Positions 1 to 32,499 are shown, counted from the stretch's first letter. The stretch: 64,000 nucleotides of DNA from Eledone cirrhosa (GCA_964016885.1 OZ024743.1:332444001-332508000); one strand, 5' to 3'. Program-made: numbers and translations. The notes: generated by a model from the letters alone, not told the origin.

Positions 1-3000
1 TCTAACATAACAGTGTTGTGTCTAACAGCAACACTGTCCCAGATGTGGGAGCAGTACTGTAATGTGGTCTAACATAACAGTGTTGTGTCTAACAGCCACA
101 CTGTCCCAGATGTGGGAGCAGTACTGTAATGTGGTCTAACATAACAGTGTCCTGTGTAACAGCAACACTGTCCCTGATGTGGGAGCAGTACTGTAATGTG
201 GTCTAACATATCTGTGTTGTGTCTAACAGCAGCACTGTCCCAGATGTGGGAGCAGTACTGTAATGTGGTCTAACATATCTGTGTTGTGTCTAACAGCAAC
301 ACTGTCCCAGATGTGGGAGCAGTACTGTAATGTGGTCTAACATATCTGTGTTGTGTCTAACAGCAACGCTGTCCTAGATGTGGGAGCAGTACTGTAATGT
401 GGTCTAACATAACAGTGTTGTGTCTAACAGCAACACTGTCCCAGATGTGGGAGCAGTACTGTAATGTGGTCTAACATAACAGTGTTGTGTCTAACAGCAA
501 CACTGTCCCAGATGTGGGAGCAGTACTGTAATGTGGTCTAACATATCTATGTCTTGTGTAACAGCAACACTGTCCCAGATGTGGGAGCAGTACTGTAATG
601 TGGTCTAACATATCTGTGTTGTGTCTAACAGCAACGCTGTCCCAGATGTGGGAGCAGTACTGTAATGTGGTCTAACATAACAGTGTCGTGTGTAACAGCA
701 ACACTGTCCCAGATGTGGGAGCAGTACTGTAATGGGGTCTAACATAACAGTGTTGTGTCTAACAGCAACACTGTCCCAGATGTGGGAGCAGTACTGTAAT
801 GTGGTCTAACATAACAGTGTCGTGTGTAACAGCAACCCTGTCCCAGATGTGGGAGCAGTACTGTAATGTGGTCTAACATATCTGTGTTGTGTCTAACAGC
901 AGCACTGTCCCAGATGTGGGAGCAGTACTGTAATGTGGTCTAACATAACAGTGTTGTGTCTAACAGCAACGCTGTCCCAGATGTGGGTGCAGTACTGTAA
1001 TGTGGTCTAACATAACAGTGTCGTGTGTAACAGCAACACTGTCCCAGATGTGGGAGCAGTACTGTAATGGGGTCTAACATAACAGTGTTGTGTCTAACAG
1101 CAACACTGTCCCAGATGTGGGAGCAGTACTGTAATGTGGTCTAACATAACAGTGTCGTGTGTAACAGCAACCCTGTCCCAGATGTGGGAGCAGTACTGTA
1201 ATGTGGTCTAACATATCTGTGTTGTGTCTAACAGCAGCACTGTCCCAGATGTGGGAGCAGTACTGTAATGTGGTCTAACATAACAGTGTTGTGTCTAACA
1301 GCAACGCTGTCCCAGATGTGGGTGCAGTACTGTAATGTGGTCTAACATAACAGTGTCGTGTGTAACAGCAACACTGTCCCAGATGTGGGAGCAGTACTGT
1401 AATGTGGTCTAACATATCTGTGTCGTGTGTAACAACAACACTGTCCCAGATGTGGGAGCAGTACTGTAATGTGGTCTAACATATCTGTGTTGTGTCTAAC
1501 AGCAACACTGTCCCAGATGTGGGAGCAGTACTGTAATGTGGTCTAACATATCTATGTCTTGTGTAACAACAACACTGTCCCAGATGTGGGAGCAGTACTG
1601 TAATGTGGTCTAACATATCTGTGTCGTGTGTAACAGCAACACTGTCCCAGATGTGGGAGCAGTACTGTAATGTGGTCTAACATAACAGTGTTGTGTCTAA
1701 CAGCAACACTGTCCCAGATGTGCGAGCAGTACTGTAATGTGGTCTAACATAACAGTGTCGTGTGTAACAACAACACTGTCCCAGATGTGGGAGCAGTACT
1801 GTAATGTGGTCTAACATAACAGTGTTGTGTCTAACAGCAACACTGTCCCTGATGTGCGAGCAGTACTGTAATGTGGTCTAACATATCTGTGTCGTGTGTA
1901 ACAGTAACACTGTCCCAGATGTGGGAGCAGTACTGTAATGTGGTCTAACATATCTGTGTCGTGTGTAACAACAACACTGTCCCAGATGTGGGAGCAGTAC
2001 TGTAATGTGGTCTAACATATCTGTGTTGTGTCTAACAGCAACACTGTCCCAGATGTGGGAGCAGTACTGTAATGTGGTCTAACATATCTATGTCTTGTGT
2101 AACAACAACACTGTCCCAGATGTGGGAGCAGTACTGTAATGTGGTCTAACATATCTGTGTCGTGTGTAACAGCAACACTGTCCCAGATGTGGGAGCAGTA
2201 CTGTAATGTGGTCTAACATAACAGTGTTGTGTCTAACAGCAACACTGTCCCAGATGTGCGAGCAGTACTGTAATGTGGTCTAACATAACAGTGTCGTGTG
2301 TAACAACAACACTGTCCCAGATGTGGGAGCAGTACTGTAATGTGGTCTAACATAACAGTGTTGTGTCTAACAGCAACACTGTCCCTGATGTGCGAGCAGT
2401 ACTGTAATGTGGTCTAACATATCTGTGTCGTGTGTAACAGCAACACTGTCCCAGATGTGGGAGCAGTACTGTAATGTGGTCTAACATAACAGTGTTGTGT
2501 CTAACAGCAACACTGTCCCAGATGTGGGAGCAGTACTGTAATGTGGTCTAACATAACAGTGTCGTGTGTAACAGCAACACTGTCCCAGATGTGGGAGCAG
2601 TACTGTAATGTGGTCTAACATAACAGTGTCGTGTGTAACAACAACACTGTCCCAGATGTGGGAGCAGTACTGTAATGTGGTCTAACATAACATTGTCGTG
2701 TGTAACAGCAACACTGTCCCAGATGTGGGAGCAGTACTGTAATGTTGTCTAACATATCTGTGTCGTGTGTAACAGCAACACTGTCCCAGATGTGGGAGCA
2801 GTACTGTAATGTGGTCTAACATAACAGTGTCGTGTGTAACAACAACACTGTCCCAGATGTGGGAGCAGTACTGTAATGTGGTCTAACATAACAGTGTCGT
2901 GTGTAACAGCAACACTGTCCCAGATGTGGGAGCAGTACTGTAATGTGGTCTAACATATCTGTGTCGTGTGTAACAACAACACTGTCCCAGATGTGGGAGC

Positions 3001-3579
3001 AGTACTGTAATGTGGTCTAACATAACTGTGTTGTGTCTAACAGCAACACTGTCCCAGATGTGGGAGCAGTACTGTAATGTGGTCTAACATATCTGTGTCT
3101 TGTGTAACAACAACACTGTCCCAGATGTGGGAGCAGTACTGTAATGTGGTCTAACATATCTGTATTGTGTCTGACTGCAACACTGTCCCAGATGTGGGAG
3201 CAGTACTGTAATGTGGTCTAACATAACTGTGTTGTGTCTAACAACAACACTGTCCCAGATGTGGGAGCATAACTGTAATGTGGTCTAACATAACAGTGTC
3301 TTGTGTAACAGCAACACTGTCCCAGATGTGGGGGCAGTACTGTAATGTGGTCTAACATAACAGTGTCGTGTGTAACAGCAACACTGTCCCAGATGTGGGA
3401 GCAGTACTGTAATGTGGTCTAACATAACTGTGTTGTGTCTAATAACAACACTGTCCCAGATGTGGGAGCAGTACTGTAATGTGGTCTAACATAACAGTGT
3501 CGTGTGTACTATCAACACTGTCCCAGATGTGGGAGCAGTACTGTAATGTGGTCTAACATAACAGTGTTGTGTCTAACAT
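1..3579. repeat. Tandem satellite, 67-bp unit, ~53 copies, runs off the left edge
   Basis: Unit tctaacataacagtgttgtgtctaacagcaacactgtcccagatgtgggagcagtactgtaatgtgg recurs at 1, 68 and onward with few variants. Confidence 0.98.
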
Positions 3580-9220: not shown

Positions 9221-11046
9221 TACCCCCACCCCACCAGTTGAACAAGTTGTCCATCATTGATATTCTATAAATATGGCATCTTTTTGTGTGTTGTCTTTTA
9301 TTGTTTCCAGTTCCATTGTCTTTCAACTTTAGGGGATTCCTTCAAGACAGAGAGACAGACAGGTAGATAGGCAGCTGGGCAGAGAGACAGGTAGTCTGGG
9401 GGCAGGCAGGGAGACAGGAGGCAGACAGGTAGACAGGCAGGCAGAGAGAGCTAGACAAGCAGACAGACAGATAGAGACAGACAGACAGGTAGACAGGCAA
9501 GCAGATAGACAGACAGAAAGACAAACAGACAGACAGATAGACAGACAGAGGTAAAAAACAGACTGACAGGTAGACAGGCAGAGAGACAGACAGGCTGGCT
9601 GGTAGACAGGTAGAGAGACAGACAGGCTGGCTGGTAGACAGGTAGAGAGACAGACAGGCTGGCTGGTAGACAGGCAGAGAGACAGACAGGCTGGCTGGTA
9701 GACAGGTAGAGAGAGACAGACAGGCTGGCTGGTAGACAGGTAGATAGACAGACTGGCTGGCTGGTAGACAGGGAGAGAGACAGACAGGCTGGCTGGTAGA
9801 CAGACAGAGAGACAGACAGGCTGGCTGGTAGACAGGTAGATAGACAAAGAGGCCGGCTGGTAGACAGGTAGAGAGACAGACAGGCTGGCTGGTAGACAGT
9901 TAGAGAGACAGACAGGCTGGCTGGTAGACAGGTAGAGAGACAGACAGCCTGGCTGGTAGACAGGCAGAGAGACAGACAGGCTGGCTGGTAGACAGGTAGA
10001 TAGACAGACTGGCTGGCTGGTAGAGAGGCAGATAGACAGACAGGCTGGCTGGTTGACAGGTAGATAGACAAACAGGCTGGCTGGTAGACAGCCAGAGAGA
10101 CAAAGAGGCCGGCTGGTAGACAGGTAGATAGACAGACAGGCTGACAGGAAGACAGGCAGCAAGACAGACAGGCTGGCTAGTAGACAGGTAGATAGACAGA
10201 CAGGCTGGCTGGTAGAGAGGCAGATAGACAGACAGGCTGGCTGGTAGACAGGTAGATAGACAGAGAAGCTGGCTGGTAGACAGGTAGATAGACAGACAGG
10301 CTGGCTGGTAGACAGGCAGAGAGAGAGACAGGCTGGCTGGTAGATAGGCAGAGAGACAGGCAGGCGGGCTGGTTGACAGGTAGATAGACAAACAGGCTGG
10401 CTGGTAGACAGGTAGATAGACAGACTGGCTGGCTGGTAGAGAGGCAGATAGACAGACAGGCTGGCTGGTAGACAGACAGAGAGACAGACAGGCTGGCTGG
10501 TAGACAGGCAGAGAGACAGGCAGGCTGGCTGGTAGACAGGTAGATAGACAGACAGGCTGGCTGGTATACAGGCAGAGAGACAGACAGGCTGGCTGGTAGA
10601 CAGGCAGAGAGAGAGACAGGCTGGCTGGTAGATAGGCAGACAAGCTGGCTGGTAGACAGGCAGAGATACAAACAGGCGGGCTGGTAGAGAGGTAGATAGA
10701 CAGACAGGCTGGCTGGTAGACAGGTAGATAGACAGAGAAGCTGGCTGGTAGACAGGTAGATAGACAGACAGGCTGGCTGGTAGACAGGTAGATAGAGAGA
10801 CGGGCTGGCTGGTAGACACGTAGCTAGACAGAGAATTTGGCTGGTAGACAGGTAGATAGACAAACAGGCTAGCTGGTAGACAGGTAGATAGACAGACAGG
10901 CTGGCTGGTAGACAGGCAGAGAGACAGACAGGCTGGCTGGTAGACAGGTAGATAGACAGACAGGCTGGCTGGTAGACAGGCAGAGAGACAGACAGGCTGA
11001 CAGGTAGACAGGCAGAGAGACAGACAGGCTGGCTGGTAGACAGGTA

Positions 11047-11173
11047 ATTTTCTTTTTATTTGCCACCAGGGCATCAAAAAGTGGGACAATTACAATGAGG
11101 GGAGTTTACACAAAAAGGCGAGTAAAGAAAACAAATAACAAATATAAAATTCACAATAAAGTCCTCAATAGGG
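11047..11173 (-). mobile_element. 3'-end stub (~127 bp) of the Tx1/L1-type LINE
   Basis: Matches 14037-14163 with about 4 substitutions; includes AATAAA on the minus strand. Confidence 0.9.
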
Positions 11174-12108
11174 GCTGGTAGACAGATAGATAGACAGACA
11201 GGCTGGCTGGTAGACAGGTAGATAGACAGACAGGCTGGCTGGTAGACAGGTAGATAGACAGACAGGCTGGCTGGTAGACAGGTAGATAGACAGACAGGCT
11301 GGCTGGTAGACAGGTAGATAGACAAAGAGGCCGGCTGGTAGACAGATAGATAGACAGACAGGCTGGCTAGTAGACAGGCAAAGAGACAAACAGGCTGGCT
11401 GGTAGACAGGTAGATAGACAGACTGGCTGGCTGGTAGACAGCCAGAGAGACAGAGAGGCTGGCTGGTAGACAGGCAGAGAGACAGGCAGGCGGGCTGGTA
11501 GACAGGTAGATAGACAGACAGGCTGGCTGGTATACAGGCAGAGAGACAGACAGGCTGGCTGGTAGACAGGCAGACAAGCTGGCTGGTAGACAGGCAGAGA
11601 TACAAACAGGCGGGCTGGTAGACAGGTAGATAGACAGACAGGCTGGCTGGTAGACAGGTAGATAGACAGACAGGCTGGCTGGTAGACAGGTAGATAGACA
11701 GACAGGCTGGCTGGTAGACAGGTAGATAGACAGAGAAGCTGGCTGGTAGACAGGTAGATAGACAGACAGGCTGGCTGGTAGACAGGTAGATAGAGAGACA
11801 GGCTGGCTGGTAGACACGTAGCTAGACAGAGAATTTGGCTGGTAGACAGGTAGATAGACAAACAGGCTAGCTGGTAGACAGGTAGATAGACAGACAGGCT
11901 GGCTGGTAGATAGACAGAGAGACAGACAGGCTGGCTGGTAGACAGACAGAGAGACAGACAGGCTGGCTGGTAGACAGGCAGAGAGACAAACAGGCTAGCT
12001 GGTAGACAGGTAGATAGACAGACAGGCTGGCTGGTAGACAGGCAGAGAGACAGACAGGCTGACAGGTAGACAGGTAGATTGACAGAGAGGCTGGCTGGTA
12101 GACAGGTA

Positions 12109-12235
12109 ATTTTCTTTTTATTTGCCACCAGGGCATCAAAAAGTGGGACAATTACAATGAGGGGAGTTTACACAAAAAGGCGAGTAAAGAAAACAAATAA
12201 CAAATATAAAATTCACAATAAAGTCCTCAATAGGG
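12109..12235 (-). mobile_element. Second 3'-end stub of the same LINE (duplicate of 11047-11173)
   Basis: Reads identical to the first stub including both junctions; offset 1062 bp. Confidence 0.9.
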
Positions 12236-14036
12236 GCTGGTAGACAGATAGATAGACAGACAGGCTGGCTGGTAGACAGGTAGATAGACAGACAGGCTGG
12301 CTGGTAGACAGGTAGATAGACAGACAGGCTGGCTGGTAGACAGGAAGTTAGACAGACAGGCTGGCTGGTAGACAGGAAGTTAGACAGACAGGCTGACTGG
12401 TAGACAGGTAGATAGACAGACAGGCTGGCTGGTCGACGGGTAAACAGGTAGACAGGCTGGCTGGTAGAGAGGTAGATAGACAGACAGGCTGGCTGGTAGA
12501 GAGGTAGATAGACAGACAGGCTTGCTGGTAGACAGGTAGATAGACAGACAGGCTGGCTAGTAGACAGGTAGATAGACAGACAGGCTGGCTGGTAGAGTGG
12601 TAGATAGACAGACAGGCTGGCTGGTAGACAGGCAGAGAAACAGACAGGCTGGTTGGTAGACAGGTAGATAGACAGACAGGCTTGCTGGTAGACAGGTAGA
12701 TAGACAGACAGGCTGGCTGGTAGATAGATAGATGGACAGACAGGCTGGCTGGTAGACAGGTAGATAGAGAGACAGGCTGGCTGGTAGACAAGTAGATAGA
12801 CAAACAGGCTGGCTCGTAGACAGGTAGATAGACAGGCTGGCTGGTAGACAGGTAGATAGACAAACAGGCTGGCTGGTAGACAGACAGTGAGACAGACAGG
12901 CTGGCTGGTAGACAGGTATATAGACAGACAGGCTGGCTGGTAGACAGACAGTGAGACAGACAGGCTGGCTGGTAGACAGGTAGATAGACAGACAGGCTGG
13001 CTTGTAGACAGCCAGAGAGAGAAACGGCCTGGCTGGTAGACAGATAGATAGACAAACAGGCTGGCTGGTAGACAGGTAGATAGACAGACAGGCTGGCTGG
13101 TAGACAGATAGATAGACAGACAGGCTGGCTGGTAGACAGATAGATAGACAAACAGGCTGGCTGGTAGACAGGTAGATAGACAGACAGGCTGACTGGTAGA
13201 TAGGCAGCGAGACAGACAGGCTGGATGGTAGACAGGCAGAGACAGACAGTCTGGCTGGTAGACAGGCAAAGCGACAGACAGGCTGGCTGGTAGACAGGTA
13301 GATAGACAGACAGGCTGGCTGGTAGACAGGTAGATAGACAGACAGGCTGGCTGGTAGACAGGCAAAGAGACAAACAGGCTGGCTGGTAGACAGGCAGAGA
13401 GACAGACAGGCTGGCTGGTAGACAGGTAGATAGACAGACAGGCTGGCTGGTAGACAGGCAGTGAGACAGACAGGCTGGCTGGTAGACAGGTAGATAGACA
13501 GACAGGCTGGCTGTTAGACAGGTAGATAGACAGACAGGCTGGCTGGTAGACAGGTAGATAGACAGACAGGCTGGCTGTTAGACAGGTAGATAGACAGACA
13601 GGCTGGCTGGTAGACAGGCAGTGAGACAGACAGGCTGGCTGGTAGACAGGTAGATAGACAGACAGGCTGGCTGGTAGACAGGCAGTGAGATAGACAGGCT
13701 GGCTGGTAGACAGGTAGATAGACAGACAGGCTGGCTGGTAGACAGGCAGTGAGATAGACAGGCTGGCTGGTAGACAGGTAGATAGACAGACAGGCTGGCT
13801 GGTAGACAGGCAGTGAGACAGACAGGCTGGCTGGTAGACAGGTAGATAGACAGACAGGCTGGCTGGTAGACAGGCAGTGAGATAGACAGGCTGGCTGGTA
13901 GACAGGTAGATAGACAGACAGGCTGGCTGTTAGACAGGCAGTGAGATAGACAGGCTGGCTGGTAGACAGGTAGATAGACAGACAGGCTGGCTGGTAGACA
14001 GGTAGATAGACAGACAGGCTGGCTGGTAGACAGGTA

Positions 14037-17015
14037 ATTTTCTTTTTATTTGCCACCAGGGCATCCAAAAGTGGGACAAGTACAATGGGGGGAGTTTACA
14101 CAAAAAGGCGAGTAAAGAAAACAAATAACAAATATAAAATTAACAATAAAGTCCTCAATAGGGAGGGGGCGTTTGGGGGGTCGCACACACCCCCGAAAAA
14201 AGTGTGCAACCCCTTCTCCTCAGGAGCACAGAGAGAGGGTGCTCCCTCATTCCTTCCTCTTTTCCACCTACAGGCTGATGTAAAGAGAAGGCCCATGCAC
14301 ACGAACCATTCTCGCCACTTTTACCCACCTTTCATAAAAACGATTGGGGTGGAGCACCTCTCTCTCCATCCTGATCCTTCTTCCGAAATGATATCGGAAG
14401 AAACGGATCAGTTGTTGGCCAGAGAGAAAGGTGCCTGACCTCAGTCCTTTCAGACGCGTCCACCATACAATCTCTTCCACCATGGCTATTACGCACAGAA
14501 ACACCGCCTCTCCTTCATTTTTTAAGGGGGGAGGCGGCTTAATCGTTACAATGGCCTCGGTTGTCAACCGGATCGGTTCCACCCGTGATAGCAGTCGTTC
14601 GACATAGCCCCACAGATCGGCTACGCTCAAGCAGTGTACCAATGCGTGTGCAACGGTTTCCTCGTTGCACACGCATCTGGGACAGATCTTTTTGGCGAGG
14701 TCCCTACCCGGGCGCCCGTGTCTGTAGAGCTTTTCTCGAACGGGTAGAGCCCCTCGGTAGCACTGCCAGGCCAGGGACTTCTGGAAGTTGTCCATAGGTC
14801 CCGGGCTGAATGTCCTACCGAACAGGCTGGCCAGTTCGTCTTCCTCCATGTCTAGGGCTTCTCCGAGGGCGTCGTCGCACCTGCTGCGTACCAGCCCTCT
14901 ATAGAATGTCGCGGTGGAGTCTCCATTGATAACTGGGTCCGCCTGCCAGAGGGCGGTGGGTGCCTGGGCACACTCAGTGTGCCAGGCGCCCAGTTTTCTC
15001 GGTCTTTGCTTGACCCAGGATTGCAGCTCGGTGAGTGAGACGAGTCTGGGAAAGGTTCGTCTCACAAACGAGGCCCACACCGGTTGACCGGTGAGGAATA
15101 TGGAGGTGCCGTAGCCTTAATGCATGTTTACTCATCATTAGCCACGGCATCCCCAGCCCTCCTTTCGAAGGGTGTTGACAGCAGATGGATCTCCTCACCA
15201 AAGGAGCCCGCTTCTTCCAAAGGAATTGGAAAAGTGCGCGCTCCATTTTGTCGAATAGTTTCCCTTGTGCAAGGCACGACGGTCAGGCGGTAGTAGATGA
15301 CGGACGCTATATAGGTGCTCGCCACCTCCGCCCGACCTTTCAGGGACAGTTTGCAACTGGCCCACTTCTGGGACAGTGCAAACACCCTGTTCGTAACCTC
15401 ACCCCAGTTCTTCTCCACCTGGAGGTCTGGTCCGAACCAGACCCTGAGCAACTTCCCCGGGCCCTCCGTCCAGCGTCCGACGACGCCATCGGAGGGCATC
15501 GGTTTGCTCCTCCACGTGCCGAGTTGCAAACCGATCGACTTGTCCCGGTTCAGCTTAGCCCCTGTGAACCTTTCGTACTCCTCCAGTAAGGTGCCGATCG
15601 CCCCGATTTCGGAGGCCGTCGACACCATTACTGTCACGTCATCGGCGTAGGCCGACACCGCTTTCCGCAATCCCGGTTCCAAAGGGATGCCCTGCAACAA
15701 CTCCAACTTCCGCAGTAGTGGCTCGAGAGTCAATACATACAGAAGGGAGGAGAGATGACACCCTTGTCGGAAGGATCGCGCGATTTCGAACGGCTCCGAC
15801 AGGTAGCCGTTCACCTTGACTCTAGAGCAGATGCGGCTGCTGTGCATAGCAGTGATCCAGCCCCTTAAAACGGGTCCGAAGCCTGCCACCGCTAGCACCG
15901 CATCCAGGTAACCATGGTCGACCCTATCGAACGCCTTAGATTGATCCAAGTTGATCAGAGCCCCACCAAAGCCGGGTTCGTTCCCAACCATCTCTATGAT
16001 GTATCGCATGAGGTGGATGTTGTCATGGATGGACCTGGACGGGATAGCACATGTCTGCGCATCTCCCACCATGTTGCCCACGACAAGCGCCAACCCCTTT
16101 GCTAGCACCTTGGCCAAAATCTGTAACTCTGTATTTAGCAGAGTTATGGGCCTGAAGTTACTTATTTCGTCCCCCTTGTTCTCGTCCTTCCTCACTAGCG
16201 TGACTACGCCCTTGGTCACAGCACAGGGAATTCTCCCGTTCTGTTGCCAGTTGCAGTAGACTGCCTCAAGGAGATCGGGGAACAAGTCCGGCATAGCTAG
16301 ATATAGTTCGTATGGAAGACCATCGAGACCCGGAGATTTGCATTTGCCGCATTGGCTCAGCACGTCCTCTATCTCAGCGGCTGAAATCGGCTCCTCGCAG
16401 GACTTCGCCTCCCTGTCCGAGAGACGCGGCAGGCCGTCGAGGTATGGACCGAAGTCCACATCCCCAACCGGCTCCCCGCCCCTTCCGAACAATCGGGCAA
16501 AGTGCCTTTGAAAGGCCTCACACATCTGCTTAGTTTCAAAGATCACCCCTCCATCCTGGTCTCGCAAAGACCGGATGGTGGATTTAGTTCCACTCTTGGC
16601 TTCTGTCACGCGGGCCCAGCTAACAGCTTTGGTCCCCTCGTTCCCTAGAGCACGTATTTTACTTCGGACAACGCAGCCTTCGTGCTTCGCGTCGTAAAAC
16701 TGGCTCAAAGCCGTTCTCGACGCTAGCACTCTGGCCACGTCGCCGCTTCTAATTGCTTCTTCTACTCTATCTATCAGCTCCCTTTCCTTCCTATTCCTAT
16801 CCGCAGCTAGAACCTTACTAAATTCTATCGAGACTAATCTAATCTCTCTCTTTAGAGATACACACCACCTGCTGTTGACGATCGCTCCAGTCAACCGCTC
16901 CTTAACTAACGTACTAATCCGGTCCCTGTAAGCTTTACTTGCCGGTAAGGACAAGTTCAGCTTCCAGTAACCGGGGCCCTGTCTATGCGTTCTATCAAGG
17001 TTGACCATGCAGGTC
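14037..17015 (-). mobile_element. 5'-truncated, frameshifted L1/Tx1-clade non-LTR retrotransposon (ORF2 remnant + 3' UTR)
   Basis: GPGYWKLN post-endonuclease motif; RT motifs KSPGLDG, NFRPITLLN, LDQSKAFDRVDH, RQG, YADD; C-terminal CPRC...ETVAHALVHC zinc finger; ORF split over three frames (15128-17015, 14974-15246, 14268-15080); AATAAA at 3' end. Confidence 0.93.
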
Positions 17016-20000
17016 ACAAACAGGCTGGTTGGTAGACAGGTAGATAGAGAGACAGGCTGGCTGGTAGACAGGTAGATAGACAGACAGGCTGGCTGGTAGA
17101 CAGGTAGATAGAGAGACAGGCTGGCTGGTAGACAGGTAGATAGACAAACAGGCTGGCTGGTAGACAGGTAGATAGACAAACAGGCTGGCTGGTAGACAGG
17201 TAGATAGAGAGACAGGCTGGCTGGTAGACAAGTAGATAGACAAACAGGCTGGCTGGTAGACAGGTAGATAGACAGACAGGCTGGCTGGTAGACAGGTAGA
17301 TAGACAAACAGGCTGGCTGGTAGACAGGCAGAGAGACAGACAGGCTGGCTGGTAGACAGGTAGATAGACAGACAGGCTGGGTGGTAGACAGGCAGAGAGA
17401 CAGACAGGCTGGCTGGTAGACAGGTAGATAGACAAACAGGCTGGCTGGTAGACAGGCAGAGAGACAGACAGGCTGGCTGGTAGACAGACAGAGAGACAGA
17501 CAGGCTGGCTGGTAGACAGGCAGAGAGACAGACAGGCTGGCTGGTAGACAGGCAAAGAGACAAACAGGCTGGCTGGTAGACAGGTAGATAGACAAACAGG
17601 CTGGCTGGTAGACAGGTAGATAGACAAACAGGCTGGCTGGTAGACAGGTAGATAGACAAACAGGCTGGCTGGTAGACAGGTAGATAGACAGACAGGCTGG
17701 CTGGTAGACAGGCAAAGAGACAGACAGGCTGGCTGGTAGACAGGTAGATAGACAGACAGGCTGGCTGGTAGACAGGTAGATAGACAAACAGGCTGGCTGG
17801 TAGACAGGCAGAGAGACAAACAGGCTGGCTGGTAGACAGACAGAGAGACAGACAGGCTGGCTGGTAGACAGGTAGATAGACAGACAGGCTGGCTGGTAGA
17901 CAGGCAAAGAGACAAACAGGCTGGCTGGTAGACAGGCAGAGAGACAGACAGGCTGGCTGGTAGACAGGCAGAGAGACAGACAGGCTGGCTGGTAGACAGG
18001 TAGATAGACAGACAGGCTGGCTGGTAGACAGACAGAGAGACAGACAGGCTGGCTGGTAGACAGGCAGAGAGACAGACAGGCTGGCTGGTAGACAGGTAGA
18101 TAGACAGACAGGCTGGCTGGTAGACAGGTAGATAGACAAACAGGCTGGCTGGTAGACAGGTAGATAGACAAACAGGCTGGCTGGTAGACAGGCAGAGAGA
18201 CAGACAGGCTGGCTGGTAGACAGACAGAGAGACAGACAGGCTGGCTGGTAGACAGACAGAGAGACAGACAGTCTGGCTGGTAGACAGGCAGAGAGACAGA
18301 CAGGCTGGCTGGTAGACAGGTAGATAGACAAACAGGCTGGCTGGTAGACAGGTAGATAAACAAACAGGCTGGCTGGTAGACAGGTAGATAGACAGACAGG
18401 CTGGCTGGTAGACAGGTAGATAGACAGACAGGCTGGCTGGTAGACAGGTAGATAGACAAACAGGCTGGCTGGTAGACAGGCAGTGAGACAGACAGTCTGG
18501 CTGGTAGACAGGCAGAGAGACAGACAGGCTGGCTGGTAGACAGGCAAAGAGACAAACAGGCTGGCTGGTAGACAGGTAGATAGACAAACAGGCTGGCTGG
18601 TAGACAGGCAGAGAGACAGACAGGCTGGCTGGTAGACAGGCAAAGAGACAAACAGGCTGGCTGGTAGACAGGTAGATAGACAAACAGGCTGGCTGGTAGA
18701 CAGGCAGAGAGACAGACAGGCTGGCTGGTAGACAGGCAAAGAGACAAACAGGCTGGCTGGTAGACAGGTAGATAGACAAACAGGCTGGCTGGTAGACAGA
18801 CAGAGAGACAGACAGGCTGGCTGGTAGACAGGCAGAGAGACAGACAGGCTGGCTGGTAGACAGGTAGATAGACAAACAGGCTGGCTGGTAGACAGGCAGA
18901 GAGACAGACAGGCTGGCTGGTAGACAGGCAAAGAGACAAACAGGCTGGCTGGTAGACAGGTAGATAGACAAACAGGCTGGCTGGTAGACAGGCAGAGAGA
19001 TAGACAGGCTGGCTGGTAGACAGGCAAAGAGACAAACAGGCTGGCTGGTAGACAGGTAGATAGACAAACAGGCTGGCTGGTAGACAGACAGAGAGACAGA
19101 CAGGCTGGCTGGTAGACAGGCAGAGAGACAGACAGGCTGGCTGGTAGACAGGCAGAGAGACAGACAGGCTGGCTGGTAGACAGGCAAAGAGACAAACAGG
19201 CTGGCTGGTAGACAGGTAGATAGACAAACAGGCTGGCTGGTAGACAGACAGAGAGACAGACCGGCTGGCTGGTAGACAGGTAGATAGACAAACAGGCTGG
19301 CTGGTAGACAGGCAGAGAGACAGACAGGCTGGCTGGTAGACAGGCAGAGAGACAAACAGGCTGGCTGGTAGACAGGCAGAGAGACAGACAGGCTGGCTGG
19401 TAGACAGGCAAAGAGACGAACAGGCTGGCTGGTAGACAGGTAGATAGACAAACAGGCTGGCTGGTAGACAGACAGAGAGACAGACAGGCTGGCTGGTAGA
19501 CAGGCAGAGAGACAGACAGGCTGGCTGGTAGACAGGTAGATAGACAAACAGGCTGGCTGGTAGACAGGCAGAGAGACAGACAGGCTGGCTGGTAGACAGG
19601 CAAAGAGACAAACAGGCTGGCTGGTAGACAGGTAGATAGACAAACAGGCTGGCTGGTAGACAGGCAGAGAGACAGACAGGCTGGCTGGTAGACAGGCAAA
19701 GAGACAAACAGGCTGGCTGGTAGACAGGTAGATAGACAAACAGGCTGGCTGGTAGACAGACAGAGAGACAGACAGGCTGGCTGGTAGACAGGCAGAGAGA
19801 CAGACAGGCTGGCTGGTAGACAGGCAGAGAGACAGACAGGCTGGCTGGTAGACAGGCAGAGAGACAGACAGGCTGGCTGGTAGACAGGTAGATAGACAAA
19901 CAGGCTGGCTGGTAGACAGGCAGAGAGACAGACAGGCTGGCTGGTAGACAGGTAGATAGACAAACAGGCTGGCTGGTAGACAGGTAGATAGACAGACAGG

Positions 20001-21829
20001 CTGGCTTGTAGACAGGCAGAGAGACAGACAGGCTGGCTGGTAGACAGGTAGATAGACAAACAGGCTGGCTGGTAGACAGGCAGAGAGACAGACAGGCTGG
20101 CTGGTAGACAGGCAAAGAGACAAACAGGCTGGCTGGTAGACAGGTAGATAGACAAACAGGCTGGCTGGTAGACAGGCAGAGAGACAGACAGGCTGGCTGG
20201 TAGACAGGCAAAGAGACAAACAGGCTGGCTGGTAGACAGGTAGATAGACAAACAGGCTGGCTGGTAGACAGGCAGAGAGACAGACAGGCTGGCTGGTAGA
20301 CAGGTAGATAGACAAACAGGCTGGCTGGTAGACAGGCAGAGAGACAGACAGGCTGGCTGGTAGACAGGCAAAGAGACAAACAGGCTGGCTGGTAGACAGG
20401 TAGATAGACAAACAGGCTGGCTGGTAGACAGGTAGATAGACAAACAGGCTGGCTGGTAGACAGGTAGATAGACAAACAGGCTGGCTGGTAGACAGACAGA
20501 GAGACAGACAGGCTGGCTGGTAGACAGGCAGAGAGACAGACAGGCTGGCTGGTAGACAGACAGAGAGACAGACAGGCTGGCTGGTAGACAGGTAGATAGA
20601 CAAACAGGCTGGCTGGTAGACAGGCAGAGAGACAGACAGGCTGGCTGGTAGACAGGCAAAGAGACAAACAGGCTGGCTGGTAGACAGGTAGATAGACAAA
20701 CAGGCTGGCTGGTAGACAGGTAGATAGACAAACAGGCTGGCTGGTAGACAGGCAGAGAGACAGACAGGCTGGCTGGTAGACAGACAGAGAGACAGACAGG
20801 CTGGCTGGTAGACAGGTAGATAGACAAACAGGCTGGCTGGTAGACAGGCAGAGAGACAGACAGGCTGGCTGGTAGACAGGCAAAGAGACAAACAGGCTGG
20901 CTGGTAGACAGGTAGATAGACAAACAGGCTGGCTGGTAGACAGGTAGATAGACAAACAGGCTGGCTGGTAGACAGGCAGAGAGACAGACAGGCTGGCTGG
21001 TAGACAGACAGAGAGACAGACAGGCTGGCTGGTAGACAGGTAGATAGACAAACAGGCTGGCTGGTAGACAGACAGAGAGACAGACAGGCTGGCTGGTAGA
21101 CAGGCAGAGAGACAGACAGGCTGGCTGGTAGACAGGCAAAGAGACAAACAGGCTGGCTGGTAGACAGGTAGATAGACAAACAGGCTGGCTGGTAGACAGG
21201 TAGATAGACAAACAGGCTGGCTGGTAGACACGTAGCTAGACAGAGAATTTGGCTGGTAGACAGGTAGATAGACAAACAGGCTAGCTGGTAGACAGGTAGA
21301 TAGACAGACAGGCTGGCTGGTAGACAGGTAGATAGACAAACAGGCTAGCTGGTAGACAGGCAGAGAGACAGACAGGCTGGCTGGTAGACAGGTAGATAGA
21401 CAGACAGGCTGGCTGGTAGACAAGCTAACAGACAAACAAACATCAGACAAGTTTTGATGTTAGAGAAGTGAGCTATTATTTTACATTACAAGTTGGTGAG
21501 GGTTGTCTATGTGCCTGTGTGTGTATATATATGTGTGTGTGTATATATCTGTATGTGTGTGTGTATGTGTATATGTGTGTGTATGTATGTTTGTTTATGT
21601 GTGTATGTATGTATGTATATATATCTGTGTGTGTATGTGCATATGAGCGTGTATATGGGTATGTGCTTATGTATGTGTATGTGTGTATATGTGTATATGT
21701 ACATGTGTATGCATATGTGTTTGAATGTGTTTATATGTGTGTATATGTGTATATATCTGTGCATGTATGTGTGTATGAGCGTGGGTATGTGCTTGTGTAT
21801 GTGTATATGTATGTATATGTATATATATG

Positions 21830-22346: not shown

Positions 22347-22393
<47 letters not shown>

Positions 22394-22447
22394 TAAACAA
22401 ATAATGAATAAAACAATGAAACAGTTCCTTATATTAAACAAAAAAAG

Positions 22448-22599
22448 TTCATTATTTAACGATCGTTTCTAGGATATATATGTGTTAGAATTGGTATGCA
22501 TATTCAACAGATCTATGTACAAAATTATACAGAATTATACAAACTATCAAGATTAAATATACATACCAACATATATACGCCGTCTTCAGAAATAATGAA
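22448..22599 (-). ncRNA. Hammerhead ribozyme with extended stem II (inverted arm of PLE-A)
   Basis: Reverse complement of 33111-33264 with a 2-nt indel in stem II. Confidence 0.8.
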
Positions 22600-23211
22600 A
22601 TATATTTATTGATAATAACAACAATTCAAAATTTCAGGTCCGTTTGGGAACAAAATTGACCAATGAAAATACAAAAGGTTTTATGCAGTTCGGTGTGTGT
22701 ATATACATGTAACTACCCTTACACATATTTTACAAAAATGTATGCTCAACATGTATACGCATACCAAAAGGATGGATGCAAATACAAAATTTCAAGGTTA
22801 ATGTCTCTGTAAGTTTATAATGCACAGATAAGATGCGTATAGACACATAAATATGAAATAAGTGTATACACATATTCTCATACTCACACATATCCGTACA
22901 ATCACACACACGCGCGCGTATATGCATAAACATACACATAATTACGAACATACAAACACACACACACCCCCACTCACATATATATATATGTGGATATCAT
23001 AAGCACATGGATATTAATTCACTCACATAAACACTGCCACACACATTTAGATCAAGATACAGAAATTAGGTGGGAGGGGGGGGAGAGGTCAGTATTCAAC
23101 GGTTTGGGCAGACTGCTTATTATAGATGTATCTATAAACTAAGAAAATAAAAAATAAAAATTAAAAAGGAAAGAAAAGAAAAAGAAAAGAAAAAAGAAAT
23201 ATATCAAGAAA

Positions 23212-23278
<67 letters not shown>

Positions 23279-23382
23279 TATAAACACACACATACATATA
23301 CACACATCCACACTTAGAACATACATACACACACATATATAAACATATACATATACACGCATACACACATATACACACATAC

Positions 23383-23439
<57 letters not shown>

Positions 23440-23744
23440 TACACATATAATCACACATACTATATAGACACACATATATATACACACATACACGCACATA
23501 TACATACACATACATACTTATATACATACAGATATACACATACATACCTATATATACACACAAATACATACATACATACATACATACATACACACAAATA
23601 CTTACGCATCCATATATCGGTATATACATACAAACACCACTACACTCTCACACAACTCAGACATACAAAGAAAAAGGTATATACCTATACACATATACAT
23701 ATACAAATAGAGATACATATACATATATATATATACATATATAT

Positions 23745-23781
<37 letters not shown>

Positions 23782-23971
23782 CACATATACACACATATAC
23801 ATACATACACATACATACATGTACACACACATACATATACATACATACACACATACACACATACATATATAGTCATACACACACATACACCTACACGAAC
23901 ATACACATACACATATATAAAGATATATATACACACACACACATACACACACACACATATATATAAAATAA

Positions 23972-24016
<45 letters not shown>

Positions 24017-24586
24017 CATATACATACACACATACATAGACATATATGTACATACATAGACATACATACATACATATACACACATATATACATATATATA
24101 CACACATAGACACATACATACACACACAACATACATACACACACATATATACTCATACATAGAATTAGATATATATTCATACATACATACGCACTTACAT
24201 ATACTCATATATACAAATACATACGCATCCATATATGCGTATATACATACAAACACCACTACACCCTCACACAACTCAGACATACAAAGAAAAAGGCATA
24301 TACATATACATATATACACACATTAATAGAGATATATATACACACATATATATATATATATATATATACACATACATTTATATATATACACCCACACACA
24401 CATACAACCATAAACACACATACAAACACACACATACACATATATATACACATACATATATATACACACACACAAAAAACAGACATACACATATATATTT
24501 TTTTACACATATATATACACATATATATACATATACACACCCTCACATATACACACATACACATAAGTTATATTATAATAATAATA

Positions 24587-24633
<47 letters not shown>

Positions 24634-24868
24634 CGAATATAGACATATATACACACATAGATATACATATATATATACATATACACACACACACACACTC
24701 ACATATATATGTGCGCACACGTACATATATACACATACACACATATACACGTAAACACATACATGTGCATACATGCACATACACACATATACCCACATAG
24801 ATACGAAGATAGACATATAAATAGAGAGACATACATATATATACACACACATATATACATACATACAT

Positions 24869-24925
<57 letters not shown>

Positions 24926-25754
24926 CACACATACACGCCCACGCACATATACACATATACATATATATATACATACACACATACACATACACATATATAT
25001 ACACACATGCATATATACACATATATATATACATACACACATATATATACACACAATCTTACATTCTTATTTGCATGCGCATATATGTATTTTTATATTC
25101 AGATATAAATACCCAAACATATATACACCTACCTACATATATATTCATACATACACGCTTACAAACACAGATGATAATAGTATGGGGGAAAGGGGGGGGT
25201 TGGAGAAGGGGATTATAGTAAATATATGTTTCAAGAAACATAGAATATTATCTGTATCTGGATCCAATGTATGTTTTTACATAGTTTCAGTGTTAGGAAA
25301 TACAAGAAATAAGGCAAAATTTATGCATTTCAAAATAAATAAGTATACCATTAATTATATGTTAACTAAACTAAAGATAGTTAACATATTGATTTCTAAG
25401 GTGTAAATTAGTTAGGTTTATAATATTTGAAGCAGAATTTTGAAGTTAAATAGTAGTAGAGTATTAATTATAGTATAACTAAATTAAAGTTAATAACGTT
25501 ATGGTATCAATATTAGGAAATGAATTTAGTAATAGGGAAAAAACAAATAAAGTATTACATCGGTAGTAGAATATAAATTATAGGTTAACTAAATTAAAAA
25601 TTATATATTAATTTCTATAGTATATGTTAATTAGGTATATAATAAATAAAACAGATATTGTATTTTATCAATAGCAGAATATAATTATATGCAAATAGAA
25701 ATCAAAATTAATACATATACATATACATATACATACACATATATATATATACAC

Positions 25755-25813
<59 letters not shown>

Positions 25814-26308
25814 TACACATACATATACATACATACATATACATATTTTTTCAAAAATTGCAAAGAATATATTAACTAGGTATACATCCAAAACACATCC
25901 CATTCTATGATTACATGACATTCTGCAATCCGTCTGTATAAGGATACTAATTTTAAGCCAATTAAATTAAATTTTAGGTTGACTAAATTTAAAACCAAAT
26001 TATAAATATATTTCTAAAATGTATATTAATTAGGTCTATAATACTAAAAATTATTTCTCTGTCATTGGATACACGATATTTTGTTATATTTTATCTGTAA
26101 AGGAATTTTAATAAAAGGTTTAAATAAATTAAAATTAATCTATAAATTAAATTACTAAGTATATATTAGTAATATTTAAATGTTTTTCACAATTTATGAT
26201 TACACAATATATTTTATATTCTCATCTGTAATAGAATTTTAATTAAATTAAATTTATAGGTTAACTAACATTTAAATTAAATTAATTTCTAAAATAATGT
26301 TATTAATT

Positions 26309-27258
26309 AGGTTTATAATATTTAAATGTTTTTTTTAGTTTATGATTACACGATATAATTCATTCCTGTCGTTTATTTAATAGGATATCCTTAGATTTCA
26401 TTATTTCAAATAGTTCTTGGGAACATAATCTACATTCATTTCTATTATTTTGATAAGGGGTGGCTCTTTTGAGCACACTCCAGGTCAAATCATATTCTAT
26501 ATTCTTATTTTTATAACTATTGATTTTTTCTGCTAGAGATGTTGTATTAGCCAGTGCGGCATTTTTAAAACTATGCTTGTGGGTATTAAACCTTGTCTTA
26601 AAATTGTTAGAGGTAGCTCCTATATATGAGCAAATAGAATCTTTAGTTTTAACATTACATTTATAGACTATGTTGTTAACAAGACAATTCCCTTTTAATG
26701 GGCAGTTTGCTTTGTTTCTACAGTTACAACCTTTCGTTAATTCTGTATTTGAGGAGATATTATGGTTAATTTGATGTACTGGTGGTATACTTATGGTTTT
26801 CTTACATTTATATGCATTATAGGCACTTATATTTTGTTTTATGTTATTTGTTGTAGAGTATGAGAATTTAACTGTAGACCTATTTAAGATTTGATGGTAT
26901 TTGTGGTTTGGCGGGAAGTTTTTCTCTAGGATATAAAAAAAATTTTTAGCAATATTATCCTTAATTTGTAAATTAAATGGAGCATTATACCAAGTAACCC
27001 GTCTATTACGGTTTCTATGTTGTTTATTATTTTTATTATTTTTATAGGTTGTATCGTGATGTTTACTAGGAGGATTAATGTTAATGATCTCACCACAACC
27101 ATTTTTAGTTATATTTGTAGATTTAGGTGTTTTATCCTTTTTATTAGGAGTTTTATTATTAATATTTATTAGAGTTGTATGATGAGTAGTTTTTTGAGAG
27201 TTACTATATTTTATATTAGAAGATTTGGTATTTTGGGGTATAGTGTGGGTGGCATTTA
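26309..27258 (-). pseudogene. Inverted partial copy of the PLE-A ORF (linker + GIY-YIG endonuclease)
   Basis: Nearly identical protein to the 3' part of 27258-29411, with a TTA>TGA stop after NKRQE. Confidence 0.9.
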
Positions 27259-29411
27259 TTGATTCTACCCTATTGGACCTAAAAAAGTCTAAAAAAATCC
27301 ATGTCCACTCGGACAAAACTGGTAACTTGTATCATATGGATATTGAACATTATAATGAGTTCATATATAAAGAACTCAGAAAAAATTATAAAAAATCTAA
27401 TAATGCGTCACTCACCAACATCAACAACAAAACACACAACATAGTAAAAAAACTAAACATTGAAGATAGAACTGAACCTTTGGCATTGAAAAGACCACAC
27501 TTCAACCTGAAGGATCATAAATCAAACTTTAACTCAAATCCTTCTATTAGACTTATATGTCCCTCCAAATCAGATATTGGAATAATTAGCAAAAAGATTT
27601 TGGATAGAGTCATCCCACAAATAAGAAAACACGTTATTTTACCACTCTGGGAAAACACCTCCCAGGTAATTAACTGGTTTAAAAATATTAGATGTAAATC
27701 TTCTGCTTCATTTCTACAATTTGATATAGATAATTACTATTCTTCTATATCACCTATACTCCTGAACAAAGCATTGATATTTGCTAAAAATAGATCTAAC
27801 TTAACTTTGGATGACATTAATATTATTACACATGCTAGACTAACACTTATTGAATTTCAGAATGAATACTGGACCAGAAACACATATAGTAATCTATTTG
27901 ATATTACTATGGGTTCAAGCGATTCCGCCCAAATTACTGATCTTGTGGGCCTCTTTCTCCTTTTCAACATAAATGCCTCCTTTCCCCACCTCAAAGGTGG
28001 TTTATATCGTGATGACTGTCTTCTTCTTTCTAACAACCTTAGCCTTTCAGAAATTGAAAAAAACAAAAAACATATTAGAACTTTCCTTAAAGACTATTAT
28101 AATCTTCATATTACTTTTGAAAAAACAAGTAAAGTAGTAAATTTCCTAGATATAACTTTAGATTTAGCTACGGGTATCTACCAACCTTACCATAAACCAA
28201 ACCAAAACTTACATTACATACACTCACAATCTAATCACCCTAAATCTATCCTTAAAAACCTTGCATATAATATATCACTTAGAATTTCTAACCTTTCTTC
28301 TAACCAAGATGTATTTGATAAAAATGCGACCTTCTATAACGAAGCTCTAGATAGAAGTGGCCACAAAAATAGATTAGAATATATACCTTCTACTAAAAAT
28401 ACTAAAAGCATACAACCTAATATTACCAACAAACACCAAATGAAAAGTACACACCTAAATGCCACCCACACTATACCCCAAAATACCAAATCTTCTAATA
28501 TAAAATATAGTAACTCTCAAAAAACTACTCATCATACAACTCTAATAAATATTAATAATAAAACTCCTAATAAAAAGGATAAAACACCTAAATCTACAAA
28601 TATAACTAAAAATGGTTGTGGTGAGATCATTAACATTAATCCTCCTAGTAAACATCACGATACAACCTATAAAAATAATAAAAATAATAAACAACATAGA
28701 AACCGTAATAGACGGGTTACTTGGTATAATGCTCCATTTAATTTACAAATTAAGGATAATATTGCTAAAAAAATTTTTTATATCCTAGAGAAAAACTTCC
28801 CGCCAAACCACAAATACCATCAAATCTTAAATAGGTCTACAGTTAAATTCTCATACTCTACAACAAATAACATAAAACAAAATATAAGTGCCTATAATGC
28901 ATATAAATGTAAGAAAACCATAAGTATACCACCAGTACATCAAATTAACCATAATATCTCCTCAAATACAGAATTAACGAAAGGTTGTAACTGTAGAAAC
29001 AAAGCAAACTGCCCATTAAAAGGGAATTGTCTTGTTAACAACATAGTCTATAAATGTAATGTTAAAACTAAAGATTCTATTTGCTCATATATAGGAGCTA
29101 CCTCTAACAATTTTAAGACAAGGTTTAATACCCACAAGCATAGTTTTAAAAATGCCGCACTGGCTAATACAACATCTCTAGCAGAAAAAATCAATAGTTA
29201 TAAAAATAAGAATATAGAATATGATTTGACCTGGAGTGTGCTCAAAAGAGCCACCCCTTATCAAAATAATAGAAATGAATGTAGATTATGTTCCCAAGAA
29301 CTATTTGAAATAATGAAATCTAAGGATATCCTATTAAATAAACGACAGGAATTAATTATATCGTGTAATCATAAACTAAAAAAAACATTTAAATATTATA
29401 AACCTAATTAA
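27258..29411 (+). CDS. PLE-A reverse transcriptase + GIY-YIG endonuclease (Naiad-like), 5'-truncated but uninterrupted
   Basis: HSDKTGNLY, LKDHK, RLICPSKSDIG, QFDIDNYY, MGSSDSA, GLYRDD, VNFLDITLDL, WYNAPF, CNC...CPLKGNC, IVY...YIG, CRLC, LLNKRQEL...CNH. The track's start at 27225 lies in the inverted arm and is not genuine. Confidence 0.93.
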   Translation: MDSTLLDLKKSKKIHVHSDKTGNLYHMDIEHYNEFIYKELRKNYKKSNNASLTNINNKTHNIVKKLNIEDRTEPLALKRPHFNLKDHKSNFNSNPSIRLICPSKSDIGIISKKILDRVIPQIRKHVILPLWENTSQVINWFKNIRCKSSASFLQFDIDNYYSSISPILLNKALIFAKNRSNLTLDDINIITHARLTLIEFQNEYWTRNTYSNLFDITMGSSDSAQITDLVGLFLLFNINASFPHLKGGLYRDDCLLLSNNLSLSEIEKNKKHIRTFLKDYYNLHITFEKTSKVVNFLDITLDLATGIYQPYHKPNQNLHYIHSQSNHPKSILKNLAYNISLRISNLSSNQDVFDKNATFYNEALDRSGHKNRLEYIPSTKNTKSIQPNITNKHQMKSTHLNATHTIPQNTKSSNIKYSNSQKTTHHTTLININNKTPNKKDKTPKSTNITKNGCGEIININPPSKHHDTTYKNNKNNKQHRNRNRRVTWYNAPFNLQIKDNIAKKIFYILEKNFPPNHKYHQILNRSTVKFSYSTTNNIKQNISAYNAYKCKKTISIPPVHQINHNISSNTELTKGCNCRNKANCPLKGNCLVNNIVYKCNVKTKDSICSYIGATSNNFKTRFNTHKHSFKNAALANTTSLAEKINSYKNKNIEYDLTWSVLKRATPYQNNRNECRLCSQELFEIMKSKDILLNKRQELIISCNHKLKKTFKYYKPN

Positions 29412-29900
29412 TAACATTATTTTAGAAATTAATTTAATTTAAATGTTAGTTAACCTATAAATTTAATTTAATTAAAATTCTATTACAGATGAGAATATAA
29501 AATATATTGTGTAATCATAAATTGTGAAAAACATTTAAATATTACTAATATATACTTAGTAATTTAATTTATAGATTAATTTTAATTTATTTAAACCTTT
29601 TATTAAAATTCCTTTACAGATAAAATATAACAAAATATCGTGTATCCAATGACAGAGAAATAATTTTTAGTATTATAGACCTAATTAATATACATTTTAG
29701 AAATATATTTATAATTTGGTTTTAAATTTAGTCAACCTAAAATTTAATTTAATTGGCTTAAAATTAGTATCCTTATACAGACGGATTGCAGAATGTCATG
29801 TAATCATAGAATGGGATGTGTTTTGGATGTATACCTAGTTAATATATTCTTTGCAATTTTTGAAAAAATATGTATATGTATGTATGTATATGTATGTGTA

Positions 29901-29963
<63 letters not shown>

Positions 29964-30795
29964 GTGTATATATATATATGTGTATGTATATGTATATGTA
30001 TATGTATTAATTTTGATTTCTATTTGCATATAATTATATTCTGCTATTGATAAAATACAATATCTGTTTTATTTATTATATACCTAATTAACATATACTA
30101 TAGAAATTAATATATAATTTTTAATTTAGTTAACCTATAATTTATATTCTACTACCGATGTAATACTTTATTTGTTTTTTCCCTATTACTAAATTCATTT
30201 CCTAATATTGATACCATAACGTTATTAACTTTAATTTAGTTATACTATAATTAATACTCTACTACTATTTAACTTCAAAATTCTGCTTCAAATATTATAA
30301 ACCTAACTAATTTACACCTTAGAAATCAATATGTTAACTATCTTTAGTTTAGTTAACATATAATTAATGGTATACTTATTTATTTTGAAATGCATAAATT
30401 TTGCCTTATTTCTTGTATTTCCTAACACTGAAACTATGTAAAAACATACATTGGATCCAGATACAGATAATATTCTATGTTTCTTGAAACATATATTTAC
30501 TATAATCCCCTTCTCCAACCCCCCCCCTTTCCCCCATACTATTATCATCTGTGTTTGTAAGCGTGTATGTATGAATATATATGTAGGTAGGTGTATATAT
30601 GTTTGGGTATTTATATCTGAATATAAAAATACATATATGCGCATGCAAATAAGAATGTAAGATTGTGTGTATATATATGTGTGTATGTATATATATATGT
30701 GTATATATGCATGTGTGTATATATATGTGTATGTGTATGTGTGTATGTATATATATATATGTATATGTGTATATGTGCGTGGGCGTGTATGTGTG

Positions 30796-30850
<55 letters not shown>

Positions 30851-31089
30851 ATGTATGTATGTATATATGTGTGTGTATATATATGTATGTCTCTCTATTT
30901 ATATGTCTATCTTCGTATCTATGTGGGTATATGTGTGTATGTGCATGTATGCACATGTATGTGTTTACGTGTATATGTGTGTATGTGTATATATGTACGT
31001 GTGCGCACATATATATGTGAGTGTGTGTGTGTGTGTGTGTATATGTATATATATATGTATATCTATGTGTGTATATATGTCTATATTCG

Positions 31090-31132
<43 letters not shown>

Positions 31133-31344
31133 TATTATTATTATAATATAACTTATGTGTATGTGTGTATATGTGAGGGTGTGTATATGTATATATATGT
31201 GTATATATATGTGTAAAAAAATATATATGTGTATGTCTGTTTTTTGTGTGTGTGTATATATATGTATGTGTATATATATGTGTATGTGTGTGTTTGTATG
31301 TGTGTTTATGGTTGTATGTGTGTGTGGGTGTATATATATAAATG

Positions 31345-31381
<37 letters not shown>

Positions 31382-31925: not shown

Positions 31926-31962
<37 letters not shown>

Positions 31963-32263: not shown

Positions 32264-32326
<63 letters not shown>

Positions 32327-32430: not shown

Positions 32431-32499
<69 letters not shown>

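What the first reader, a model, noticed from the sequence alone, without database searches (positions are those of the whole stretch)
11047..17015. Tx1/L1-type LINE joined to a 32-bp satellite at one fixed phase: satellite-targeting or satellite-tailed retrotransposon
All three LINE 3' ends have the same orientation and junction (minus strand ...AATAAAAAGAAAAT|TACCTGTCTACCAGCCAGCC) with no poly(A) tail. The two stubs match each other but differ from the long copy at about 4 sites, suggesting at least two events. Sequence-specific Tx1-group LINEs that target microsatellites or multicopy genes are established; I do not know of one tied to this 32-mer. Either the endonuclease cuts a specific position in the unit, or the repeat is the element's own 3' tail and seeds the array.
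Basis: partly seen in the sequence, partly recalled or inferred. Interest (0 to 1): 0.72.

Follow-up and report, generated by a model that had tools for sequence, protein, structure and literature searches.

The report
GATA-repeat-seeking LINE in a local minisatellite
These are broken copies of an abundant jumping gene, likely from an octopus, that sits mostly in GATA-type short repeats across the genome, likely because its cutting enzyme prefers them; here it lies at a GATA-like spot of a local 32-base repeat that the family is not tied to.

Summary
The three LINE 3' ends, their shared phase and the missing poly(A) are real, but the link to the 32-mer is not. Only 3 of 1,003 genomic 3' ends join the 32-mer, all here; 838 abut GATA. 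The 32-mer is a single-locus minisatellite (42 of 42 exact units in this window). In 70 position-ordered copies, 44 have GATA-type repeat at the 5' junction too (controls 1-3 of 69), the two flanks mirror each other locus by locus, and 7-20 bp target-site duplications occur. So the repeat is mainly a target, not a tail. The window junction is one of the two best GATA-like positions in the unit. The two stubs are one event copied by a ~1-kb array duplication; stub and long copy are probably, not surely, separate insertions. The family has an L1-like endonuclease, RT and zinc-knuckle ORF1, and works like the microsatellite-targeting Tx1 elements Kibi and Koshi; Tx1 membership was not tested by phylogeny. 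I found no paper naming a GATA target. This scan has already reported GATA-targeting LINEs at eight or more other places in this genome.

The parts
9558..21422 (+). Single-locus 32-bp minisatellite made of eight tetramers of GATA/GACA/GGTA/GCTG type; about 8.6 kb without the LINE pieces; pre-existing landing site
   Evidence: TRF; 42 of 42 exact units and 179 of 179 matches of an 18-mer core in the genome lie in this window; length
9345..9557 (+). Degenerate (CAGA)n/(TAGA)n-like lead-in into the array; suggests the 32-mer grew from a compound tetranucleotide microsatellite (inference)
11047..11173 (-). Stub 1: last 127 bases of the LINE 3' UTR
11173..11188 (+). Apparent target-site duplication of stub 1 (15-16 bp modulo 32, one mismatch to 11031-11046, 1 bp microhomology)
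   Evidence: read from the sequence
12109..12235 (-). Stub 2: identical copy of stub 1 made by array duplication
10552..12362 (+). Higher-order duplication of the array carrying the stub (10552-11300 and 11518-12362)
   Evidence: 728 of 749 aligned bases identical, shared rare variants
14037..17017 (-). 5'-truncated LINE copy: 3' UTR (about 14037-14267), C-terminal zf-RVT region, RT; cut at the very end of the endonuclease; two frameshifts near 15250 and 15100; about 96% identical to its closest subfamily
17016..17042 (+). Apparent target-site duplication of the long copy (25-27 bp modulo 32; could equally be a 5-7 bp target deletion)

Best explanation
The pieces belong to an abundant L1-group LINE family whose copies sit in one orientation at GATA-type microsatellites genome-wide, likely because its endonuclease nicks the GATA strand after an A-N-R-T-A motif and primes reverse transcription there; the local 32-mer likely received two such insertions at its GATA-like position, and one was later copied by an array duplication. 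Shown: the family anatomy (about 5.7 kb, zinc-knuckle ORF1, endonuclease-RT-zinc finger ORF2, no poly(A)), the junction motif, repeat on both flanks, target-site duplications, the single-locus nature of the 32-mer and the duplication of the stub. Inferred: first nick on the GATA strand, second nick 7-20 bases upstream giving the duplication, endonuclease (possibly helped by pairing of a read-through UAUC RNA end) as the source of specificity, and independence of stub and long copy (about 60%).
For: 838 of 1,003 exact 3' ends have GATA at the junction, 16 have AGGTA, 3 the 32-mer. In 70 position-ordered copies from contig C1: A at -5 in 69, T at -2 in 69, A at -1 in 68; last pentamer AGATA 55, ATATA 6, AGGTA 3, other 6. 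GATA-type hexamer within 30 nt of the 5' junction in 44 of 70, against 3, 2 and 1 of 69 at 300, 600 and 900 nt. Left and right flanks resemble each other within a locus more than across loci (0.464 vs 0.317 +/- 0.022; outside the duplication zone 0.296 vs 0.192 +/- 0.023; 0 of 10,000 shuffles each). GGTA on both sides in L097, L158, L160, L165, L168; AAAT in L136; TA in L142. Anchored duplications followed by more repeat: L057 (17 bp, a single GATA on the 3' side), L122, L003, L113, L148. Same-orientation stacking within 150 nt in 6 of 70, opposite in 0 of 70. Endonuclease: Pfam Exo_endo_phos, invariant D141, N143, D202, D226, H227 in 52 sequences, model pLDDT 87 with human L1 ORF2p/endonuclease as top structural hits. 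RT closest to L1 ORF2p among solved structures.
Against: 26 of 70 copies show no GATA-type hexamer at the mapped 5' junction; some are mis-called ends, nested copies, inversions or TA sites, others are unexplained. Several copies (L101, L104, L133, L134, L140) have a short duplication with no GATA run after it, so a short motif can suffice (18 loci picked by eye). L025 has one more GATA unit on the 3' side than in its duplication, so small tail additions or slippage occur. Two independent hits in this array are not expected often: about 0.06-0.25 insertions expected, chance of two about 0.002-0.03 (my arithmetic; exact 24-mer copies only). The long copy's apparent duplication (25-27 bp) exceeds the 7-20 bp seen elsewhere. 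No biochemical or RNA data.
Confidence: 0.85

Rival explanations
1. The family inserts with weak preference and brings its own (TATC)n 3' tail, so the GATA runs are made by the element and later attract slippage and further copies.
For: Most 3' junctions end in GATA; L025 has an extra unit on the 3' side; 26 of 70 lack GATA at the 5' junction.
Against: 15 of 70 have no perfect GATA unit at the 3' end and 19 only one. Non-GATA junctions mirror the repeat on the far side. In L057, L122 and L003 the long run lies on the 5' side beyond the duplication. Flank concordance holds outside the duplication.
Confidence: 0.08
2. The family-level reading stands, but this locus had a single insertion: the stub arose from the long copy by template switch or duplication plus deletion inside the unstable array (or by a second priming from the same RNA).
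For: Stub and long copy share the minor AT-start 3' variant (5 of 28 aligned relatives), the same phase 23 rather than 27 and one array, where two independent hits are unlikely. The array does duplicate LINE pieces.
Against: They differ at 4 of 127 sites and share no private substitution other than the AT start, so any split is about as old as the insertion; the stub ends like a normal 5' truncation with a 15-16 bp apparent duplication and 1 bp microhomology; no rare array variant next to the stubs recurs next to the long copy.
Confidence: 0.35
3. The element specifically targets the 32-bp satellite, or carries it as a tail that seeds the array.
For: Three junctions at one phase in this window.
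Against: 3 of 1,003 ends, all here; unit absent elsewhere; two of the three junctions are one duplicated event; array on both sides with shared rare variants.
Confidence: 0.02

Closest known systems
Kibi (TC)n and Koshi (TTC)n of teleosts; crocodilian Tx1 families on (TTCC)n/(TTTC)n (PMC4494074, passages and section 15 read; PMC3812793, passages read)
   Same: APE-type LINE inserted preferentially into a microsatellite; passes the paper's criterion of more than 20% of flanks by a wide margin.
   Different: Target is GATA/TATC with GGTA, TA and AAAT tolerated; host likely an octopod; relationship to Kibi/Koshi not tested.
Waldo (ACAY)n and Mino (AC)n (PMC3812793, passages read; their R1-clade placement is recalled)
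   Same: APE-type elements that target tetra- or dinucleotide microsatellites.
   Different: Insect elements; other repeat; RT here is closest to L1 among solved structures.
Human LINE-1 ORF2p (PDB 8C8J, 8SXT, 1VYB)
   Same: Endonuclease fold, RT homology E 1e-41, 5' truncation, short target-site duplications, 5' inversions in a few copies.
   Different: No poly(A) tail; microsatellite target; ORF1 has a CCHC zinc knuckle (read by eye).
L1-Tx1 families annotated in Octopus vulgaris (PMC13282606, passages read)
   Same: 13 recently active L1-Tx1 families, 421 insertions, are listed for an octopus.
   Different: The word 'target' does not occur in the main text; whether this family is among them is unknown (library and supplements not read).

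Membership tests
L1 group of non-LTR retrotransposons | N-terminal APE-type endonuclease in ORF2 | tested here: met
   Pfam PF03372, catalytic residues invariant, fold matches L1 endonuclease, in a longer relative (L084); sequence-only PDB search gave no hit
L1 group of non-LTR retrotransposons | RT closest to L1, C-terminal cysteine-rich region | tested here: met
   L1 ORF2p E 1e-41 vs R2 E 1e-16 to 1e-12; only these two LINE kinds appeared; zf-RVT below its curated cutoff
L1 group of non-LTR retrotransposons | Two ORFs, about 5-7 kb, 5' truncation and target-site duplication | tested here: met
   Full-length copies 5.6-5.9 kb with ORF1 and ORF2; duplications 7-20 bp
Tx1 clade | RT phylogeny groups with Tx1L, Keno, Kibi, Koshi | not testable with these tools
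   No named Tx1 reference was returned by three protein searches or a cluster look-up; the atlas was unavailable
Tx1 clade | Target preference for a repeated sequence (more than 20% of flanks, PMC4494074) | tested here: met
   838 of 1,003 3' ends; 44 of 70 5' junctions
Kibi/Koshi lineage | (TC)n, (TTC)n, (TTCC)n or (TTTC)n target | tested here: not met
   Junction pentamers are AGATA, ATATA, AGGTA; 1 of 19 best-hit copies ends in a (GA)n run
Satellite-specific LINE (32-mer) | Family copies enriched in the 32-mer | tested here: not met
   3 of 1,003, one locus
Microsatellite-targeting APE LINE | Endonuclease cleaves the repeat specifically | not testable with these tools
   Needs an in vitro nicking assay

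The most novel reading that the evidence does not exclude
An undescribed octopod L1/Tx1 lineage with over a thousand copies has an endonuclease that reads a relaxed GATA-type motif (A-N-R-T-A), a microsatellite target not yet reported for this group, and picks that motif out even inside unrelated minisatellites, giving a large natural data set and a tractable enzyme for learning how APE endonucleases gain repeat specificity.
Probability: 0.55. Interest if true: 0.5.

Novelty: new member of a known kind. Interest (0 to 1): 0.33.

Why it matters
How APE-type LINEs target microsatellites is described as not well understood (PMC3812793, passage read). A young family with over 1,000 insertion sites, several subfamilies and measurable tolerance (GATA, GGTA, TA, AAAT) would let one map endonuclease preference directly. 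It also warns that GATA microsatellite markers in this animal often sit beside LINE ends. The locus itself is ordinary for the family: an off-consensus site in a private minisatellite.

Tried and rejected
32-mer targeting and 32-mer tail: rejected. Three independent events: rejected. A left-flank-only weight matrix could not separate unit positions 23, 27 and 31 (scores 9.3-9.4), so the exact phase is not predicted uniquely. Automatic TSD calling was uninformative inside pure repeats. RT phylogeny against named Tx1 elements: no references obtainable; atlas gave no result. Sequence search of the endonuclease against PDB: no hit. Literature searches for a GATA/TATC/AGAT target returned 0 papers; Tx1 plus octopus or cephalopod returned 8 and 3 papers, of which I read passages of one. 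The Tx1L endonuclease paper was not held. Repbase, subscription papers and supplements were not seen and may already name this target.

Full report
Observation. The window holds a 32-bp tandem array at 9558-21422 interrupted by three minus-strand LINE pieces whose 3' ends start at 11047, 12109 and 14037, each after unit position 23 and without poly(A). The stubs are 127 bases, identical to each other over 154 of 154 bases with flank, and differ from the long copy at 4 sites. The long copy spans 14037-17017, carries RT and the zf-RVT region, is cut at the last residues of the endonuclease and has two frameshifts.

The stubs are one event. The blocks 10552-11300 and 11518-12362 align at 728 of 749 bases and share rare unit variants. 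So there are at most two insertions. Two of these rare variants recur at 21227-21244, right of the long copy, which indicates one array that existed before the long insertion (inference).

The 32-mer is private to this locus. All 42 exact units and all 179 matches of an 18-base core in the 3.0-Gb genome are in this window. The junction of 32-mer and LINE occurs 3 times, all here. The LINE 3' end, as an exact 24-mer, occurs 1,003 times; 838 have GATA at the junction and 16 have AGGTA, three of them the window's.

Target or tail. I examined 70 of the first 71 listed 3' ends, all on contig C1 and taken in position order (one skipped because it lay in a neighbour's stretch), and separately 30 best-scoring loci, 20 of them or their like extended, 19 usable. 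In the 70, positions -5, -2 and -1 are A, T, A in 69, 69 and 68; last pentamers are AGATA 55, ATATA 6, AGGTA 3, others 6. A GATA-type hexamer lies within 30 nt of the 5' junction in 44 of 70, against 1-3 of 69 further out. The 26 misses include mis-called ends, nested copies, 5' inversions and TA sites, and some I cannot explain. The two flanks of a copy resemble each other more than flanks of different copies, also outside the duplicated zone (0 of 10,000 shuffles). Copies in GGTA, AAAT or TA repeats have that repeat on both sides. Where unique sequence anchors the duplication it is 7-20 bp, and in L057, L122 and L003 the long GATA run lies beyond it on the 5' side (loci picked by eye). A fixed templated tail predicts none of this. 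Against a pure target reading: L025 has one extra unit on the 3' side, and five copies have no run after a short duplication. Sister copies stack in the same orientation (6 of 70 within 150 nt, 0 opposite, by a limited motif), as expected when each insertion leaves a target behind.

Why this phase. Against an ideal GATA run, + strand positions 23 and 27 of the unit tie at 15 of 18 bases and the best position on the other strand scores 7. Orientation is thus explained and phase is one of two best choices. The 13 other AGGTA junctions lie in GGTA/GATA microsatellite or next to short such runs.

One or two insertions here. From genome counts of AGGTAGATAG (28,693) and AGATAGATAG (435,723) sites and 129 such sites in the array, I estimate by hand 0.06-0.25 expected insertions and a 0.002-0.03 chance of two; this ignores sister subfamilies and the fact that the locus was chosen for having several. 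Stub and long copy share a minor AT-start variant (5 of 28 aligned relatives, one locus left out for lacking the end) but no other private change. I put independent insertion at about 60%.

The family. Full-length copies are 5.6-5.9 kb with at least three kinds of 5' end; subfamilies are about 96%, 89% and 82% identical to the window's subfamily. ORF1 has a CCHC knuckle (by eye; no Pfam hit). ORF2 has an APE endonuclease whose model (pLDDT 87) is closest to human L1 ORF2p, and an RT closest to L1 among solved structures. The closest named proteins are from Argonauta hians (61% identity) and a cuttlefish, so the host is likely an octopod (inference).

Mechanism. Shown: anatomy, junction motif, two-sided repeat, duplications. 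Inferred from target-primed reverse transcription (PMC3747384, passages read): the endonuclease nicks the GATA strand after A-N-R-T-A, the 3' end primes cDNA from an RNA without poly(A), a second nick 7-20 bases upstream makes the duplication, and early termination gives truncated copies. Pairing of a read-through UAUC RNA end may help set the register; not testable here (no RNA holder listed).

Known systems. Tx1-clade Kibi, Koshi and crocodilian families target TC, TTC, TTCC and TTTC repeats (PMC4494074: passages and section 15); Waldo, Mino and Dong target ACAY, AC and TAA (PMC3812793: passages). Target-specific APE elements fall in the Tx1 and R1 clades (PMC4640811: passages). None of these passages names GATA, and three searches for it found no paper. 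An Octopus vulgaris annotation lists active L1-Tx1 families without discussing targets (PMC13282606: passages). Repbase, the 2004 Kojima and Fujiwara paper and all supplements were not seen. It works like Kibi/Koshi; Tx1 membership is likely but untested.

Earlier notes. After forming this reading I found eight earlier scan reports of GATA-targeting LINEs in this genome, two of them in other satellites. They are unchecked AI notes and not independent support; they show this locus adds little beyond a clear off-consensus example. Their claim of an ATT-targeting sister family I did not test.

Verdict. Real feature, wrong target: a new member of a known kind, already noted repeatedly by this scan. 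Interest 0.33.

Noticed in passing
window 22385-27258 and 28456-33327, ORF 27198-29411 (+): A 4.9-kb inverted repeat at 98.9% identity surrounds a 737-aa open frame with Penelope-like RT and GIY-YIG-like motifs read by eye (no Pfam hit); 26360-27331 (-) is an inverted copy of its 3' part. Looks like a young Penelope-like element with an inverted copy that includes several kb of microsatellite-rich flank.
   Followed up: partly
window 57162-58481 (+): 439-aa frame with RT followed by a PHD finger; a 65% identical relative at 43746-44507.
   Followed up: no
window 1-3578, 47033-47707, 49133-49417: Other minisatellites with 67-, 48- and 65-bp units.
   Followed up: no
window 35139-36696 (-) and 39807-42532: Several 130-280 aa frames; the six scanned had no Pfam match. 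38580-40034 and 42245-43177 form inverted repeats of 94-97%, so this may be a DNA-transposon-like unit.
   Followed up: no
L075, L081, L082, L083, L084, L089: Full-length copies followed within a few GATA units by an about 80-82% identical sister element in the same orientation.
   Followed up: partly
L111 and L119: Copies with internal or 5' inversions, like twin-priming products of L1 (likeness recalled).
   Followed up: no
L011 (window-oriented 1928-2870): A sister element inserted into the GATA run just past a truncated copy, duplicating that copy's last bases; a direct record of re-use of the target.
   Followed up: yes
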